From a virus, in the IMG/VR virus record IMGVR_UViG_3300025913_000030, positions 1 through 64,000 of that record: 64,000 nucleotides of DNA. The stretch is one strand, 5' to 3'. Within the stretch, counting starts at the first letter, position 1. Every line of letters starts with the position of its first letter. Position numbers and translations under genes: made by a program. This document shows positions 44,013 to 46,815 of the stretch, one piece after another. Under the pieces are notes generated by a model, which was not told the origin of the DNA, did no database searches, and saw only the letters and a program-made list of their open reading frames with translations.

Positions 44013-44053
44013 AAAAGAGAACCGCCCCAGTCGGCCTCGACGACTGGGGCGGT
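44013..44053 (-). terminator. Intrinsic terminator ending the Y RNA/Ro60/tRNA unit
   Basis: 13-bp stem followed by UCUCUUUU on the minus strand. Confidence 0.8.
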
Positions 44054-44247
44054 CCAAGTCTGGCTGATCAACTGCCTGCCGTGTCCTAGCAGATCCTCGC
44101 GGATGGCGCGCGCACCGTCCTTGAATCAACTACCCGGAGCTGACGAGGCTCCTTGAACCACTGCAAACAGGCGGGGGAAGACCGCAGCAACCTTACTCCC
44201 GCTTTGACCCGCGCCCCTCACCGGTCAAGGCTACTCACGCGGATATG

Positions 44248-44321
44248 TGGCAGGGATGGGATTTGAACCCACGACCTTCGGGTTATGAGCCCGACGAGCT
44301 ACCGAACTGCTCCACCCTGCT
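44248..44321 (-). tRNA. Initiator tRNA-fMet(CAT)
   Basis: AGCAGGGTGGAGCAGTTCGGTAGCTCGTCGGGCTCATAACCCGAAGGTCGTGGGTTCAAATCCCATCCCTGCCA; A1:C72 mismatch and three G-C pairs in the anticodon stem. Confidence 0.93.
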
Positions 44322-44429
44322 GTGAACCGGATTGCCGCCCCCGGCTCTGCTGGCCCATACACCTCAGCACGGTCCGGCTTCCCGGACTTACCTAGCCAGC
44401 CCCGCACATCCGAGGATGCGTCCACCACC

Positions 44430-46157
44430 TTACATCGAGCGGCGCGCCTCGTGCAGCAGCTCCTGCACGTTGTCGTCCGTGCGCGGCGAGCGCAGGAACC
44501 CGGAGACCAGCTGCGGCAGCGCCGCGTCGAATCCAGCCACCTGCAGCACACCCTGCTGCTTCGGGTCGGCGATCGAGTGGCCGGCCGCGGTCATCGACGC
44601 GACGATGACGCGCGCCTGCGGATTCACCGACGAACGGTAGCCGTCCAGAGCCTGGCTCGGGTGCTGGTACCGGCCGGCCCACGTCTCGTTGTCCGTCAGC
44701 ACCAGGAACCCGTCGACCGCGATCCGCTGGGAAGCGGCCCACTCGAACGGGAGTGACAGGTCCGTCCCGCCGCCGCTCGGCTGCCAGGACGCGATCTCGC
44801 GCAGGTTGGTGCGCGGCGTGACCCGCGACCTGCGCACGGCGGTGTCGACGTCGATGACGTGGACGTTGCCCTTCTCGATCCGGGACATCGCCGCCGCCAT
44901 CCCGCACGCGATCTCGTACGGGGAGCCCAGGGGCGAGCCGCCGAGCACGACCCGGCCGCCGAAGCCGTTGGACATCGACCCGGACGAGTCGACCGCGACC
45001 AGCAGCCGCTTCCCCGAAGGCTCGACGTAGCCGAAGGAGAGCTCGTAGGCCTCCTCCAGCGCATCGGAGATCGCCGCGAGCGGTGTCCAGGTGCGCAGCG
45101 GCGCCTTCGGGTTGGGCTGCGCTGCCCCCGAGTTGTAGACCTTCAGGGCGAGGTAGACGTCGAGGGGGTGGATGCGCGCCTTCTTCAACGCCTCGCCGTC
45201 GGTCAGCCGGCGTACGACCGTCGAAACGGCCTCGCCTCCATAGGGCTTGAGAGCCGCGATCCTGGTCATCCGCGCGAGATTGCGGATCAGGGCCGTCATG
45301 CCGACCGTCTCGGTCAGCGCTTCCCAGACCTCGGGCGAGTCGAGTACCGCGTCCGGCAGGAACTCCCACGGCACGCGCAGGGTCCGCACCGCGGTGACCG
45401 CCTCCTTCGGACCTGTGACCGCCTTGGCGATCCGGTACTTCTCCACGCTCGGCAGCACCAGGGCCGCCTGCTCGTCCGGAACGTTGCCCGCGAGCCAGCC
45501 GAACAGGGCGTCGGTCGCCGGGTCCATCTTGATCAGCGATGGCTTCGCGAGGCGCAGCATGTCCCGCAGGGCGAAGGGCTCGCCGCTGCCGGTCTTGCGC
45601 GAGCGGGCCTTGCACGCCCGGAACGCGATGCGGTCCGCGTCGTCGGCCAAGAACCAGTCGGCCAGAGCGCCGCGCATCAGCCGGTTCATGACCGGCGCGA
45701 TGCCCTTCCCCGAGGGCTTGCCCTTGAGGTTCTTGTAGTAGCCCCAGAAATGCGCGAAGTGGTCGGTGGTGCGCGCGATCGATGGCAGCGCACCACGCGC
45801 CGCGCGGCGCGCGTCCAGGTCGCCTCGGGCGAAGGCCGCGGCGAGGACGAAGAGGGCCGGGAAATTCTTCGGCGCGCGGCCGGCGGTGCTGACCTCGGTG
45901 GCCAGCTGGACCGCGCGGCAGCCATCAGCCCCGATCGCGTCGAAGACCACCTGCGCGTTGGCGAAGGTGTGCTCCTTCTCCCCGACGTAGTAGGTGCCGC
46001 CGGTCGTGCCGAGGATCAGGAAGTCCTCAAGCTTCGTCCAGAGGTCCTTGCCGAAGGTGAAGCCGCCCGCGTTGTTGCGGACCATCTCGGCCTGGCGGCC
46101 GGGGATCGGCTCGGTCTGCGGCGTGCGCACGGTGCTGACCATGGACAGGGCGTCCAT
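44430..46157 (-). CDS. rsr: Ro60/Rsr TROVE + vWA RNA-binding protein
   Basis: NNAGGFTF..LEDFLILGTTGGTYY, MTALIRNLARMT and KARIHP motifs; MIDAS VDSSGSM and LTDNETW; GAAAGGA RBS. Confidence 0.95.
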   Translation of the reverse strand: MDALSMVSTVRTPQTEPIPGRQAEMVRNNAGGFTFGKDLWTKLEDFLILGTTGGTYYVGEKEHTFANAQVVFDAIGADGCRAVQLATEVSTAGRAPKNFPALFVLAAAFARGDLDARRAARGALPSIARTTDHFAHFWGYYKNLKGKPSGKGIAPVMNRLMRGALADWFLADDADRIAFRACKARSRKTGSGEPFALRDMLRLAKPSLIKMDPATDALFGWLAGNVPDEQAALVLPSVEKYRIAKAVTGPKEAVTAVRTLRVPWEFLPDAVLDSPEVWEALTETVGMTALIRNLARMTRIAALKPYGGEAVSTVVRRLTDGEALKKARIHPLDVYLALKVYNSGAAQPNPKAPLRTWTPLAAISDALEEAYELSFGYVEPSGKRLLVAVDSSGSMSNGFGGRVVLGGSPLGSPYEIACGMAAAMSRIEKGNVHVIDVDTAVRRSRVTPRTNLREIASWQPSGGGTDLSLPFEWAASQRIAVDGFLVLTDNETWAGRYQHPSQALDGYRSSVNPQARVIVASMTAAGHSIADPKQQGVLQVAGFDAALPQLVSGFLRSPRTDDNVQELLHEARRSM

Positions 46158-46202
46158 CGTGGTTTCCTTTCGAGGATTCAACACGGCCGGGGCCGGACGC
46201 GA

Positions 46203-46237
46203 ACCGGCCCGCACGAGGGGGTGTCGTGCGGGCCGGT
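46203..46237. other. 14-bp perfect hairpin between the Y RNA array and Ro60
   Basis: ACCGGCCCGCACGA/TCGTGCGGGCCGGT with no U-tract; possible attenuator or processing element. Confidence 0.6.
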
Positions 46238-46242
46238 CAGGG

Positions 46243-46371
46243 GACGGATGCGGGAGTGACTACCGGGTTTAAGCGTCTTAGGCCGCTAGACAACCAATCC
46301 CGAGGGATTGGACGGGATTCGAACCCGCGTCTCTCCTTTGCAAGGGGTAACCGATAATCGTTCAACCCGTC
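46243..46371 (-). ncRNA. yrlA: YrlA-like Y RNA A with a permuted tRNA domain (loop UUGCAAA)
   Basis: Order: GACGGGUUGAA..UCGGUUA, anticodon-like hairpin, T arm GCGGG-UUCGAAU-CCCGU, closed 7-bp acceptor, D arm GUCUAGCGGCCUAAGAC, GCAUCCGUC. Confidence 0.85.
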
Positions 46372-46384
46372 GGTGGTGCGAGGT

Positions 46385-46515
46385 GAGCGGATACGGAGGG
46401 CGGCCACCGGTGTTAAGTGCTCTGCCAATTGAGCTACGCACCCGAAGGTGCGACGGGACTTGAACCCGCAACCACTCTCTTAACAGGAGATAACCGACGG
46501 CCTTTCAACCCGCTC
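46385..46515 (-). ncRNA. yrlA: YrlA-like Y RNA B with a permuted tRNA domain (loop CUGUUAA)
   Basis: UCUC-CUGUUAA-GAGA hairpin, T arm, CGCACC-UUCG-GGUGCG acceptor, D arm GCUCAAUUGGCAGAGC, terminal GAGCGG/CCGCUC stem. Confidence 0.88.
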
Positions 46516-46547
46516 GATCGAGCCGTCAGGCTCGGCGATTCACGAGT

Positions 46548-46684
46548 GTCCGGATGCGGTGTCGACCACCGGGTTTTAGCGCTCTACCAGTTGAGCTACC
46601 CATACGGATCTCTCCGTTTGGACGGGATTCGAACCCGCAACCTCTCGAACCAGAATCGATAACCGACGGTCATTCAACCCGGAC
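46548..46684 (-). ncRNA. yrlA: YrlA-like Y RNA C with a permuted tRNA domain (loop UUCUGGU)
   Basis: UCGA-UUCUGGU-UCGA hairpin, T arm, GAGA-capped acceptor, D arm GCUCAACUGGUAGAGC, terminal GUCCGG/CCGGAC stem. Confidence 0.88.
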
Positions 46685-46709
46685 CAGGCTCACTGTGTTC
46701 AGTTGTCAG

Positions 46710-46779
46710 CGGAGCAGATGCGCAAAGCTGGTCCCCGGAGTCATCAGCCAGATAACCGAGAGCCTTTCAACCCGCTCCG
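46710..46779 (-). ncRNA. Minimal Y RNA D (Ro-type stem only)
   Basis: Same GGGUUGAA...UCGGUUA and GCAUCUG boxes as A-C, with no tRNA domain. Confidence 0.75.
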
Positions 46780-46785
46780 AGAAAG

Positions 46786-46815
46786 ACAGTACAGGGCGAC
46801 GTGACTATCCGTCAA
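46786..46815 (-). promoter_or_regulatory. Promoter of the Y RNA/Ro60 unit, with the 15-bp motif
   Basis: TTGACGGATAGTCAC; TTGACG-N18-TACTGT, ending 6 nt before the 5' end of Y RNA D. Confidence 0.8.

What the first reader, a model, noticed from the sequence alone, without database searches (positions are those of the whole stretch)
44013..46815. Self-contained phage Ro60 RNP operon: four Y RNAs, Ro60 and initiator tRNA
Seen: one promoter (TTGACG-N18-TACTGT) starts at Y RNA D. It is followed by Y RNAs C, B and A, a 14-bp hairpin, an intact Ro60 with MIDAS motif, a structured spacer, tRNA-fMet, about 190 nt of non-coding sequence, and an intrinsic terminator. Known: bacterial Ro60/Y RNA acts in structured-RNA decay with PNPase, is often linked to the RNA ligase RtcB, and has been noted in some phages. 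No rtcB is present in this window. Inference: the module may protect or repair translation, or redirect host RNA decay, under control of the phage-wide operator.
Basis: partly seen in the sequence, partly recalled or inferred. Interest (0 to 1): 0.8.

Follow-up and report, generated by a model that had tools for sequence, protein, structure and literature searches.

The report
Phage Ro60, Y RNA and initiator-tRNA unit
A soil actinophage carries a complete Ro60 RNA-binding module (four Y RNAs, the Ro60 protein and an initiator-type tRNA) that closely mirrors the arrangement in its likely host lineage, so it is a variant of a known kind of system rather than a new one.

Summary
The window is part of a complete 74.7-kb phage genome with terminal repeats.

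- **Y RNAs.** Three are YrlA-type with a tRNA-like module. One is a stem-only mini Y RNA. All fall below Rfam's YrlA cut-off, but a covariance model built here scores them 118-126 bits and 38 bits.
- **Variant motif.** All four carry GNUGAA where the published Ro60-binding motif has GNCGAA. Only this phage and its two closest relatives use that form throughout.
- **Not a phage invention.** The layout "short Y, three YrlA, Ro60" also occurs in Streptosporangiaceae chromosomal rsr loci. Their Ro60 is 56-67% identical, and none is near-identical.
- **tRNA.** It is initiator-type, with an A1xC72 acceptor end instead of the hosts' C1xU72.
- **Promoter.** It sits in a 15-nt motif found 16 times in the window against 1.2 expected.
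- **Absent genes.** No RtcB or PNPase domain was found in the genome.
- **Prior knowledge.** Phage Ro60 with Y RNAs has been described since 2014.
- **Function.** Recruitment of a host exoribonuclease is inferred, not shown.
- **Side lead.** A circularly permuted copy of the Y RNA Ro-binding stem sits just before the Ro60 ribosome-binding site. It is present in 60 of 156 related loci and may autoregulate Ro60.

The parts
46801..46815 (-). 15-nt phage-wide promoter/operator-like motif TTGACGGATAGTCAC; its first six bases are the -35-like hexamer
   Evidence: Exact match, one of 16 matches with up to 3 mismatches against 1.2 expected. Five more lie in the remaining 10.7 kb of the genome. Conserved in front of the first Y RNA in L002 and L004.
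46786..46791 (-). -10-like TACTGT (TAnnnT), 18 nt after the -35; the Y RNA D stem starts about 7 nt downstream
   Evidence: Read from sequence. L002 has TAGCGT and L004 TAACGT at the same place. Not reported by the consensus scan.
46709..46779 (-). Y RNA D: stem-only mini Y RNA. It keeps the two-helix Ro60-binding module and has a short loop in place of the tRNA-like domain.
   Evidence: Model R1, 37.8 bits, E 1.1e-8, filters off. Folds at -31.4 kcal/mol, z -2.19. Motif GGGUUGAAAG.
46545..46685 (-). Y RNA C: YrlA-type with T-arm, acceptor-like stem-loop and D-arm
   Evidence: R1 118.6 bits. Rfam YrlA 36.1 bits, below the gathering score of 69.
46382..46516 (-). Y RNA B: YrlA-type
   Evidence: R1 126.1 bits. 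Rfam YrlA 50.7 bits, E 9.3e-10, below the gathering score.
46239..46373 (-). Y RNA A: YrlA-type, with a 7-bp acceptor-like stem
   Evidence: R1 119.3 bits. Rfam YrlA partial match, 22.2 bits. Fold.
46202..46238 (-). G+C-rich hairpin (14 Watson-Crick pairs plus one G-U, 7-nt loop) with no U tract; a possible 3' protective structure or partial terminator
   Evidence: -34 kcal/mol, z -3.36. A hairpin stands at the same place in L002 and L004, with a U-rich tail in L004.
46177..46201 (-). Leader hairpin before the Ro60 ribosome-binding site. It carries the Y RNA 3'-strand and 5'-strand motifs in permuted order. In the window it is a variant form: 6 of 7 pairs kept, U-form motif GUGUUGAA.
   Evidence: Alignment A3 and pair counts. 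The window's fold alone is no better than shuffles, z +0.55.
44430..46157 (-). Ro60/Rsr gene, 575 aa, preceded by AAAGGA; MIDAS residues D390, S392, S394, T465, D489
   Evidence: Pfam vWA_Ro60 and TROVE. phrog_850 at 3.2e-58. 2NVO at 4.3e-79, full length.
44322..44429 (-). Structured spacer. Its 3' 81 nt form a three-way element plus a hairpin that abuts the tRNA 5' end.
   Evidence: z -1.87. Against L002: 26 predicted pairs, 3 with changes on both sides, 3 with a one-sided G-U change, none broken.
44247..44321 (-). Initiator-type tRNA (anticodon CAU) with A1xC72, G29-31:C39-41 and A11:U24; no encoded CCA
   Evidence: Rfam tRNA 64.8 bits. ARAGORN. Best E. coli match is the four-tRNA-Met cluster between mltA and amiC. 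Aligned with host-lineage initiators.
44056..44246 (-). 191-nt non-coding tail with no evidence of function
   Evidence: z +1.31. No credible ORF. Not alignable to the L002/L004 tails, which resemble each other. No Rfam match.
44010..44055 (-). Intrinsic terminator: 15-bp stem, 7-nt loop, then TCTCTTTTC
   Evidence: Terminator scan. -31.4 kcal/mol, z -5.37, 0 of 200 shuffles as good. Conserved in L002 and L004.

Best explanation
This is a phage-borne Ro60/Y RNA ribonucleoprotein module. It shares its whole layout with the rsr loci of Streptosporangiales actinobacteria, the probable host lineage, and has since diverged.

**Proposed sequence of events**
1. A phage promoter, embedded in a 15-nt motif that recurs over the genome, starts transcription at the first base of Y RNA D.
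2. The primary transcript carries four Y RNAs: one stem-only and three YrlA-type with a tRNA-like module.
3. A strong hairpin follows. It protects the array or stops part of the transcripts.
4. Read-through transcripts encode Ro60, a structured spacer and an initiator-type tRNA, and end at an intrinsic terminator.
5. Host RNases cut the precursor. RNase P defines the tRNA 5' end, and so the 3' end of the Ro60 message.
6. Ro60 binds the conserved terminal helix and internal loop of each Y RNA.
7. By analogy with Deinococcus, Salmonella and Thermus phage phiLo, the Y RNA then tethers Ro60 to a host 3'-5' exoribonuclease (PNPase), so the phage retunes decay of structured RNA during infection.
8. 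The tRNA adds initiator capacity.

**Shown here:** the identity, order and conservation of the parts. **Inferred:** single-transcript status, processing, the PNPase partnership and any effect on the host.
For: **Phage context**
- The record is a 74,704-bp virus genome with direct terminal repeats, estimated 100% complete.
- It encodes terminase, portal, major head protein, tape measure, DNA polymerase, primase, exonuclease and helicase.

**Ro60**
- Both domains are present. It aligns over its full length with three solved Ro60/Rsr sequences.

**Y RNAs**
- In alignment A1 (17 sequences from the window and eight relatives), 17 of 32 predicted pairs keep pairing through changes on both sides.
- The model built from it finds four copies here and nowhere else in the genome.

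**Shared layout**
- All 116 model hits in 79 viral loci lie on the Ro60 strand, most of them upstream of it.
- There are 199 hits in 75 Streptosporangiales loci. Many show a short copy followed by three long ones, for example L139, L137, L125, L134 and L114.

**Relationship**
- Window, L004 (81%) and L002 (75%) form a clade with 100 support. It sits beside, not inside, the 78-row cellular clade.

**Unit boundaries**
- Promoter, post-array hairpin, tRNA slot and terminator are kept in L002 and L004.

**RNA library**
- In a rhizosphere metatranscriptome run, one 538-nt contig covers 46234-46769 with 3 differences and bridges all Y RNA junctions.
- A second contig of 345 nt covers 44062-44405 and bridges spacer, tRNA and tail.

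**Literature**
- YrlA-like RNAs lie next to Ro60 in 254 bacteria and 22 phages, and M. smegmatis YrlA is cut by RNase P (PMC4201824, passages and section 5 read).
- The phiLo phage Ro60 binds two upstream Y-like RNAs and host PNPase (PMC12135203, passages read).
Against: - No experiment bears on this phage.
- The RNA-library evidence consists of assembled contigs. They cannot show starts, ends or strand, the library may hold DNA, and a contig across two genes does not prove one transcript (caveats).
- The promoter matches only 8 of 12 consensus positions and was not picked up by the scan.
- The upstream ORF ends 13 nt before the -35 with no terminator, so the unit may also be read from upstream.
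- The Y RNAs miss Rfam's curated score, and all four have U where the published motif GNCGAAN0-1G has C. Binding to Ro60 is therefore assumed, not shown.
- The phage encodes no PNPase-type RNase PH domain, so the partner would have to be the host's.
- The host itself is inferred only from Ro60 similarity.
Confidence: 0.7

Rival explanations
1. Two outputs rather than one operon. The hairpin at 46238-46202 ends most transcripts, so the promoter mainly makes a Y RNA array. Ro60 and the tRNA come from rare read-through or from an unrecognised internal start.
For: - The hairpin is very stable, z -3.36.
- Its counterpart in L004 is followed by a U-rich tail, like an intrinsic terminator.
- Actinobacterial terminators often lack U tracts (my own knowledge, not from a call).
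Against: - The window's hairpin has no T run.
- No promoter-like site and no copy of the 15-nt motif lies between the hairpin and the tRNA.
- Ro60 has a normal ribosome-binding site 42 nt after the hairpin.
Confidence: 0.3
2. Counter-defence by tRNA supply and tRNA mimicry. The initiator tRNA replaces host initiator tRNA destroyed or blocked by host tRNA-targeting toxins. The three tRNA-like Y RNAs act as decoys for such enzymes, with Ro60 stabilising them.
For: - The only two tRNAs of the phage both have anticodon CAU.
- The initiator has an acceptor end (A1xC72) unlike that of three Streptosporangiales genomes (C1xU72). The same A1xC72 recurs in L002 and L035.
- The hypothesis that phage tRNAs counter host tRNases, and the fact that VapC-type toxins cleave initiator tRNA, are in PMC10264068 (passages read).
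Against: - The anticodon loop CUCAUAA is identical to that of the host-lineage and E. coli initiators, so it would not escape an anticodon-loop nuclease.
- The same paper states that phages generally avoid encoding tRNA-fMet where it is the target.
- L004 has a different tRNA in this slot.
- No defence gene of the host is known.
Confidence: 0.2
3. A passenger: a host rsr locus picked up by the phage and carried without a phage-specific role.
For: - The layout is the same as in Streptosporangiaceae chromosomes.
- The closest cellular proteins belong to that lineage.
Against: - The module is intact in three phage contigs whose Ro60 differ by 19-25%.
- It sits under a phage-type promoter motif.
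- Its Y RNAs and leader all share a derived U-form motif.
- Ro60 occurs in 361 phage records.
Confidence: 0.08

Closest known systems
Bacterial rsr-YrlA loci of Actinomycetota (M. smegmatis Rsr with YrlA/YrlB; Streptosporangium roseum YrlA in Chen et al. 2014, PMC4201824)
   Same: - Ro60 with TROVE and vWA domains.
- Y RNAs upstream on the same strand.
- A T-arm, acceptor-like stem and D-arm in the long Y RNAs, plus a shorter companion Y RNA.
- In Streptosporangiaceae genomes the array "short plus three long" is the same as here.
   Different: - The locus is on a phage and under a phage-wide promoter motif.
- Ro60 is only 56-67% identical.
- All Y RNAs carry U in place of the motif's C.
- An initiator tRNA follows Ro60. 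Among genome loci L081-L160, 11 had any tRNA call, and none of the six CAU tRNAs checked in them had the initiator G-C signature.
Ro-like RNA-binding proteins with YrlA RNAs of actinophages (Mycobacterium phage ET08 and other cluster C phages; Gordonia, Streptomyces phages)
   Same: Phage-encoded Ro60 with Y RNAs. It often sits next to tRNA genes (PMC4201824).
   Different: - Only 37-40% protein identity.
- No DNA similarity beyond tRNA-like stretches.
- Those phages carry large tRNA sets, whereas this one has two tRNAs.
Thermus phage phiLo Ro60 with Yrl1/Yrl2 (PMC12135203)
   Same: Y-like RNAs directly upstream of a phage Ro60. No phage PNPase, so a host enzyme would be co-opted.
   Different: - It did not appear among the solved structures matched by sequence (one search lists only 2NVO, 1YVP and 9NEN).
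- It has two Y-like RNAs built around a CGAA motif.
- Among the passages I read, none mentions an initiator tRNA in the unit.
Salmonella rsr-yrlBA-rtcBA RNA repair operon
   Same: Ro60 plus a tRNA-like YrlA and a shorter YrlB in one operon.
   Different: No RtcB here. The sigma-54/RtcR control of that operon has no counterpart seen in this locus.

Membership tests
Ro60/Rsr (TROVE family) | TROVE (HEAT-repeat ring) domain followed by a vWA domain | tested here: met
   Pfam TROVE 2.5e-19 and vWA_Ro60 1.1e-37, both above their cut-offs. Full-length alignment to 2NVO, 1YVP and 9NEN.
Ro60/Rsr (TROVE family) | Intact MIDAS motif (DxSxS, T, D) in the vWA domain | tested here: met
   D390-S-S392-G-S394, T465 and D489 align with DVSGS, GGTD and TDNETWAG of D. 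radiodurans Rsr.
YrlA (Rfam RF02553) | Score at or above Rfam's gathering score (69 bits) | tested here: not met
   50.7, 36.1 and 22.2 bits; no hit for D.
YrlA (Rfam RF02553) | Conserved 5'-strand motif GNCGAAN0-1G (Chen et al. 2014) | tested here: not met
   All four copies read GUUGAANG, with U for C. The U form is the only form in the window, L002 and L004. Elsewhere there are 223 C-form sites and 3 single U-form sites.
YrlA (Rfam RF02553) | tRNA-like module (T-arm, acceptor-like stem-loop, D-arm) inside a long terminal helix | tested here: met
   Present in A, B and C, with 17 of 32 pairs covarying in A1. Absent in D.
YrlA (Rfam RF02553) | Encoded within 4 kb of Ro60 on the same strand | tested here: met
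   82-622 nt upstream of the Ro60 start, same strand.
Bacterial initiator tRNA | No Watson-Crick pair at 1:72 | tested here: met
   A1 opposite C72, flagged as non-standard by cmscan. This differs from C1xA72 in E. coli and C1xU72 in three Streptosporangiales genomes.
Bacterial initiator tRNA | Three consecutive G:C pairs (29-31:39-41) in the anticodon stem, and A11:U24 | tested here: met
   GGGCUCAUAACCC and the D stem GAGC/GCUC can be read. That these features define initiators is recalled knowledge.
Bacterial initiator tRNA | Aminoacylated with Met and formylated | not testable with these tools
   Needs biochemistry.
RYPER-type machine (Ro60-Y RNA-PNPase) | Y RNA tethers Ro60 to PNPase | not testable with these tools
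   No RNase PH domain in the phage genome. A host PNPase would be needed.
rsr-rtcBA RNA repair operon | RtcB ligase linked to rsr | tested here: not met
   PF01139 has no match in the 74,704-bp genome; the control search found it in 10 of 14 genomes.

The most novel reading that the evidence does not exclude
The Ro60 message carries a circularly permuted mimic of the Y RNA Ro60-binding module in its leader.

**What the element is.** The Y RNA 3' strand (CAYAUCCGCC), a short loop and the 5' strand (GGCGGGUCGAA) form a capped hairpin 3-12 nt before the ribosome-binding site. Ro60 would bind it and set its own translation against the pool of free Y RNAs, as ribosomal proteins do with rRNA mimics.

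**Where it occurs.** The element is found in 60 of 156 loci examined: all 8 close viral-contig loci (L002-L009) and 52 of 79 Streptosporangiales genome loci.

**Co-variation.** In the three-phage clade, both the Y RNAs and this leader have switched from C to U at the same motif position (3 of 3 leaders, against 0 of 53 others). This is what a shared protein partner predicts. It would also make the phage Ro60/Y RNA pair orthogonal to the host's own pair.
Probability: 0.35. Interest if true: 0.75.

Novelty: new variant of a known kind. Interest (0 to 1): 0.5.

Why it matters
Ro60/Y RNA particles are conserved from bacteria to humans, yet their role in bacteria and phages is still poorly defined.

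- **Capture of a whole module.** This locus shows a phage carrying the complete host-type module: the RNA array, the protein and the leader.
- **A natural specificity test.** The one motif base that Ro60 is reported to contact is changed in every copy. This offers a direct experiment on whether a virus can run a private Ro60/Y RNA pair beside the host's.
- **A possible control loop.** The permuted Y-stem in the leader, if real, would be the first feedback control proposed for Ro60. It is easy to test with binding and reporter assays.
- **An unexplained tRNA trait.** The initiator tRNA with an unusual A1xC72 end, seen again in two other viral contigs, is a second small puzzle. It bears on why phages carry tRNAs.

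Tried and rejected
- **Near-identical phage.** Megablast of 13 kb of structural genes against 50,697 phage records found nothing. Blastn of the locus matched only tRNA-like stretches.
- **More relatives of the spacer.** An exact 18-nt pattern found seven viral loci. Only one (L166, the same contig as L002) is related. The six others are 48-50% G+C phages where the word lies in an unrelated hairpin, and I treat them as a chance match.
- **Metagenome scan with Ro60.** It gave no further member of the phage clade. The one 71% fragment (L228) has no tRNA and unrelated downstream DNA.
- **The 191-nt tail.** No Rfam family at E up to 10, no structure signal, no ORF and no conservation. The different L002/L004 tails also gave no Rfam match.
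- **Second helix of the leader mimic.** The ribosome-binding site pairs with the upstream flank in 46 of 55 leaders. Flank-shuffled controls give 39.7 +/- 3.0 (highest 47) and flank-swapped controls 42.3 +/- 2.2 (highest 48). This is mostly a composition effect, and I do not count it as support.
- **The window's own leader.** It folds no better than shuffles, z +0.55.
- **Gaps in RNA-library cover.** Gaps at 44005-44061 and about 46094-46233, and lower-identity pieces over Ro60, cannot be read as transcript ends or levels.
- **Earlier notes of this scan.** None for this genome.
- **Literature.** Two full-text searches found no paper on Ro60/Rsr autoregulation or a Y RNA-like leader. Subscription journals are not covered.

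
Full report
**Context.** The window is bases 1-64000 of a 74,704-bp virus record with direct terminal repeats, estimated complete. G+C is about 68%. PHROG matches show a siphovirus-type head and tail block on the plus strand: terminase, portal, major head protein and tape measure. A replication block lies on the minus strand: DNA polymerase, primase-polymerase, exonuclease, helicase and a sigma factor. Megablast found no close relative among 50,697 deposited phage genomes. 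The finding lies at the far end of the minus-strand block.

Reading the minus strand gives the following, in order:
- TTGACG (46815-46810), 18 nt, then TACTGT (46791-46786).
- Four repeats that each carry GGGUUGAANG, then UCGGUUAYC, and end in CGYAUCYG.
- A hairpin of 14 Watson-Crick pairs plus one G-U at 46238-46202 (z -3.36).
- A 575-aa ORF at 46157-44430 behind AAAGGA.
- A 108-nt spacer.
- A tRNA with anticodon CAU at 44321-44247.
- 191 nt without a credible ORF.
- A 15-bp terminator with a T-rich tail at 44055-44010.

**The protein.** It has the TROVE and Ro60-vWA domains above Pfam's cut-offs. It belongs to PHROG 850. It aligns over its whole length with D. radiodurans Rsr (E 4.3e-79), Xenopus Ro60 and human Ro60, and the five MIDAS residues are in register.

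**The Y RNAs.**
- *Rfam.* The YrlA model finds three of them, but only at 50.7, 36.1 and 22.2 bits against a gathering score of 69.
- *Own alignment.* I aligned the three long copies with 14 copies from eight related loci (A1). RNAalifold returned the YrlA architecture: a terminal helix, an internal loop, a second helix, then a T-arm, an acceptor-like stem-loop and a D-arm. Of 32 pairs, 17 are kept through changes on both sides.
- *Own model.* The covariance model built from A1 scores the window's copies at 126, 119 and 119 bits. With filters off it scores the first, short copy at 37.8 bits, E 1.1e-8. That copy keeps both helices of the Ro60-binding module and has an 11-nt gap where the model has the tRNA-like domain.
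- *Elsewhere in the genome.* No further copy exists.
- *Summary.* There are four Y RNAs: three YrlA-like and one minimal.

**A variant motif.** The published signature of the Ro60-binding strand is GNCGAAN0-1G (PMC4201824, passages read). All four copies here read GUUGAANG. A pattern count covered 79 viral, 80 genome and 80 metagenome loci.
- The C form occurs at 223 sites.
- The U form is the only form in the window's two closest relatives, L002 and L004.
- Otherwise the U form occurs as single sites in three loci.
- The same paper reports that the equivalent C is among the bases protected by Rsr in D. radiodurans Yrn1. This change is therefore where a change of partner specificity would be expected. 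That is inference.

**Four copies are not a phage novelty.**
- *Viral contigs.* In 79 Ro60-encoding viral contigs the model finds 116 copies at E up to 0.01 in 51 loci, all on the Ro60 strand and most of them upstream of it. At least eight loci hold four or more, up to 7 in L016 and 9 in L067.
- *Cellular loci.* In 75 Streptosporangiales genome loci it finds 199 copies at E up to 0.001.
- *Same layout.* Many Nonomuraea, Sphaerisporangium and Streptosporangium loci show exactly the window's layout: a roughly 70-nt copy followed by three copies of about 135 nt, then rsr. Examples are L139, L137, L125, L134 and L114.
- *Conclusion.* The phage unit is homologous as a block to the cellular locus.

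**Relationship to hosts.**
- *Similarity.* The best cellular Ro60 proteins, all from Streptosporangiales, are 56-67% identical. Deposited actinophage proteins are at most about 40% identical.
- *Tree.* I built a FastTree tree of 104 rows: the window, 27 of the 79 viral loci and 76 genome loci. I left out L023, L030, L090, L120 and any row whose open frame was under 450 aa.
- *Placement.* The window groups with L004 and L002 at 100 support. This clade sits in an unresolved fork with a small group (L117, L003, L006) and a 78-row cellular clade (99 support) that follows genus boundaries.
- *Caveats.* The outgroup was not monophyletic and long branches were flagged. I read only the local picture: the phage genes are a sister lineage, not a recent copy.
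- *Misfiled contigs.* Three IMG/VR "viral" contigs (L007, L008, L009) give Ro60 identical to that of bacterial genome contigs L151, L127 and L092, so they are bacterial or prophage DNA.

**The promoter and the "phage-wide operator".**
- *Enrichment.* The -35 is the start of a 15-nt word, TTGACRGATAGTCAC. It occurs 16 times in the window with up to 3 mismatches, against 1.2 expected. It occurs five times in the other 10.7 kb with up to 2 mismatches, against 0.03 expected.
- *Orientation.* It mostly follows the direction of the genes.
- *Promoter use.* At least four copies have a TAnnnT hexamer 17-18 nt downstream: 46801, 49838, 55834 and 41598. Others abut a ribosome-binding site and cannot be promoters.
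- *Conservation.* The word is kept in front of the first Y RNA in L002 and L004, and in all three phages the first Y RNA helix begins about 7 nt after the -10.
- *Candidate regulators.* Nearby are a GerE-type protein, a GntR-type protein, a sigma factor and an HTH_3 protein.
Which protein reads it is unknown.

**One unit or two?**
- *For a single unit.* There is no other promoter-like site or motif copy inside, and the promoter and terminator are conserved in both relatives.
- *Against.* The upstream ORF stops 13 nt before the -35 with no terminator. The post-array hairpin has a U-rich tail in L004.
- *RNA library.* A public rhizosphere metatranscriptome run holds 35% of the locus's sampled words. 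One contig covers 46234-46769 with three differences and bridges all Y RNA junctions. Another covers 44062-44405 and bridges spacer, tRNA and tail.
- *Limits.* These are assembled contigs from an RNA library. They show presence, not transcript ends, and DNA carry-over cannot be excluded.

**The tRNA.**
- *E. coli match.* It matches the four-gene tRNA-Met cluster between mltA and amiC at about 88-90% identity, with a median of 4 places per genome. From my own knowledge this is the metZWV initiator locus.
- *Initiator features.* It has G29-31:C39-41 and A11:U24, and no Watson-Crick pair at 1:72.
- *Unusual acceptor end.* The end is A1xC72. Initiators of a Streptosporangium, a Nonomuraea and a Spirillospora genome have C1xU72, and E. 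coli has C1xA72. The D arm is identical to theirs.
- *Recurrence.* A1xC72 recurs in L002 and in an unrelated viral contig, L035. That makes 3 of the 4 initiator-type tRNAs seen in the viral loci, the window's included. A tRNA-like gene 70 nt after Ro60 on a Nonomuraea plasmid contig (L130) has it too.
- *The slot in L004.* There it holds a remodelled 80-nt tRNA with anticodon CGA.
- *tRNA count.* The phage has only one other tRNA, also CAU.
- *Absent partners.* No RtcB and no RNase PH domain are encoded.

**The spacer and the tail.**
- *Spacer.* The 81 nt before the tRNA are conserved in L002. Of 26 predicted pairs, 3 change on both sides, 3 change to or from G-U, and none breaks. This is a selected structure of unknown role. 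It may be a stable 3' end for the Ro60 message after RNase P cleavage, but that is inference from two sequences.
- *Tail.* The 191-nt tail shows no sign of function.

**A lead beyond the finding.**
- *The element.* Just before the Ro60 ribosome-binding site, relatives carry CAYAUCCGCC, a 3-5 nt loop, then GGCGGGUCGAA. This is the Y RNA 3' strand and 5' strand in reversed order. The invariant five pairs of the Y RNA terminal helix form a capped hairpin, and the conserved loop bases flank it.
- *Distribution.* A strict pattern finds it in 60 of 156 loci examined: 8 of 77 viral loci (all of L002-L009) and 52 of 79 genome loci.
- *Pairing.* In an alignment of 55 distinct leaders plus the window, the hairpin is paired in 99% of cells, and 3 of 7 pairs show changes on both sides. 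The set was preselected for a hairpin, so only the covariation counts.
- *Co-variation with the Y RNAs.* The motif base is U in the three phage leaders and C in the other 53 rows of A3 (read by eye). This matches the switch in their Y RNAs.
- *The window's copy.* It keeps 6 of 7 pairs but is not a strong fold on its own.
- *Sequestration of the ribosome-binding site.* This was not supported beyond composition.
- *Literature.* Two full-text searches found no description of Ro60 autoregulation.
- *Reading.* I propose a Ro60-binding mimic for feedback control, at about one chance in three.

**Verdict.** This is a real, well-delimited phage Ro60/Y RNA unit. It is a variant of a known kind, captured or shared as a block with Streptosporangiales rsr loci. 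Its Ro-binding motif is privately altered, and an initiator-type tRNA is attached. Function is inferred by analogy only.

Noticed in passing
window 46177-46201 (-); L002-L009 and 52 genome loci at about 2930-2990: A circularly permuted copy of the Y RNA Ro60-binding helix sits just before the Ro60 ribosome-binding site. It is widespread in Streptosporangiales rsr loci. In the three phages it shares their C-to-U motif change.
   Followed up: partly
window 10889-10963 (-), with 11073-11087 and 10835-10885: A second tRNA with anticodon CAU forms its own mini-unit: the 15-nt motif about 110 nt upstream and a hairpin with a T tail downstream. Its best E. coli matches are annotated tRNA-Ile, so it may be a lysidine-type tRNA-Ile2 rather than elongator Met.
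   Followed up: partly
window 43984-44000 (-): In the next gene, TACTCT is followed after 7 nt by the ATG, with no room for a leader. The arrangement is conserved in L002 and L004 and suggests a leaderless mRNA directly after the initiator-tRNA unit. The 134-aa product has no Pfam match.
   Followed up: partly
window 1571-1598, 10789-10831, 41961-42009 and others; L252 690-4344: The motif TTGACRGATAGTCAC occurs as inverted or tandem pairs at several intergenic sites, and some copies touch a ribosome-binding site. This resembles the repressor sites spread over some temperate actinophage genomes (recalled, not tested).
   Followed up: partly
L004 4782-4861: In the closest relative the tRNA slot holds an 80-nt tRNA-like gene (anticodon CGA, long extra arm, Rfam tRNA 37.2 bits). 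Its acceptor 3' strand and D arm resemble the initiator's.
   Followed up: no
L130 4730-4806: A Nonomuraea plasmid contig has a tRNA-like gene 70 nt after Ro60 with A1xC72 and C instead of U at position 33.
   Followed up: no
L013, L021, L026, L035, L038, L074, L178, L086, L096, L157, L159: In many viral contigs and some metagenome-assembled genomes, Ro60 lies inside or beside arrays of 9-24 tRNA genes.
   Followed up: no
L007, L008, L009 versus L151, L127, L092: Three IMG/VR 'viral' contigs give Ro60 identical to that of contigs of Nonomuraea, Sphaerisporangium and Actinomadura genomes. L009 and L092 even share contig length and range.
   Followed up: no
window 46400-46670 versus phage records H3-H18: The tRNA-like parts of Y RNAs B and C match features annotated as tRNA-Leu, tRNA-Asn or tRNA-Asp in Gordonia, Microbacterium and Mycobacterium phages. 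Some of those annotations may be Y RNAs.
   Followed up: no
window 36145-40024 (-): Three adjacent ORFs match phage glycosyltransferase families. One of them also matches a DNA methyltransferase family.
   Followed up: no
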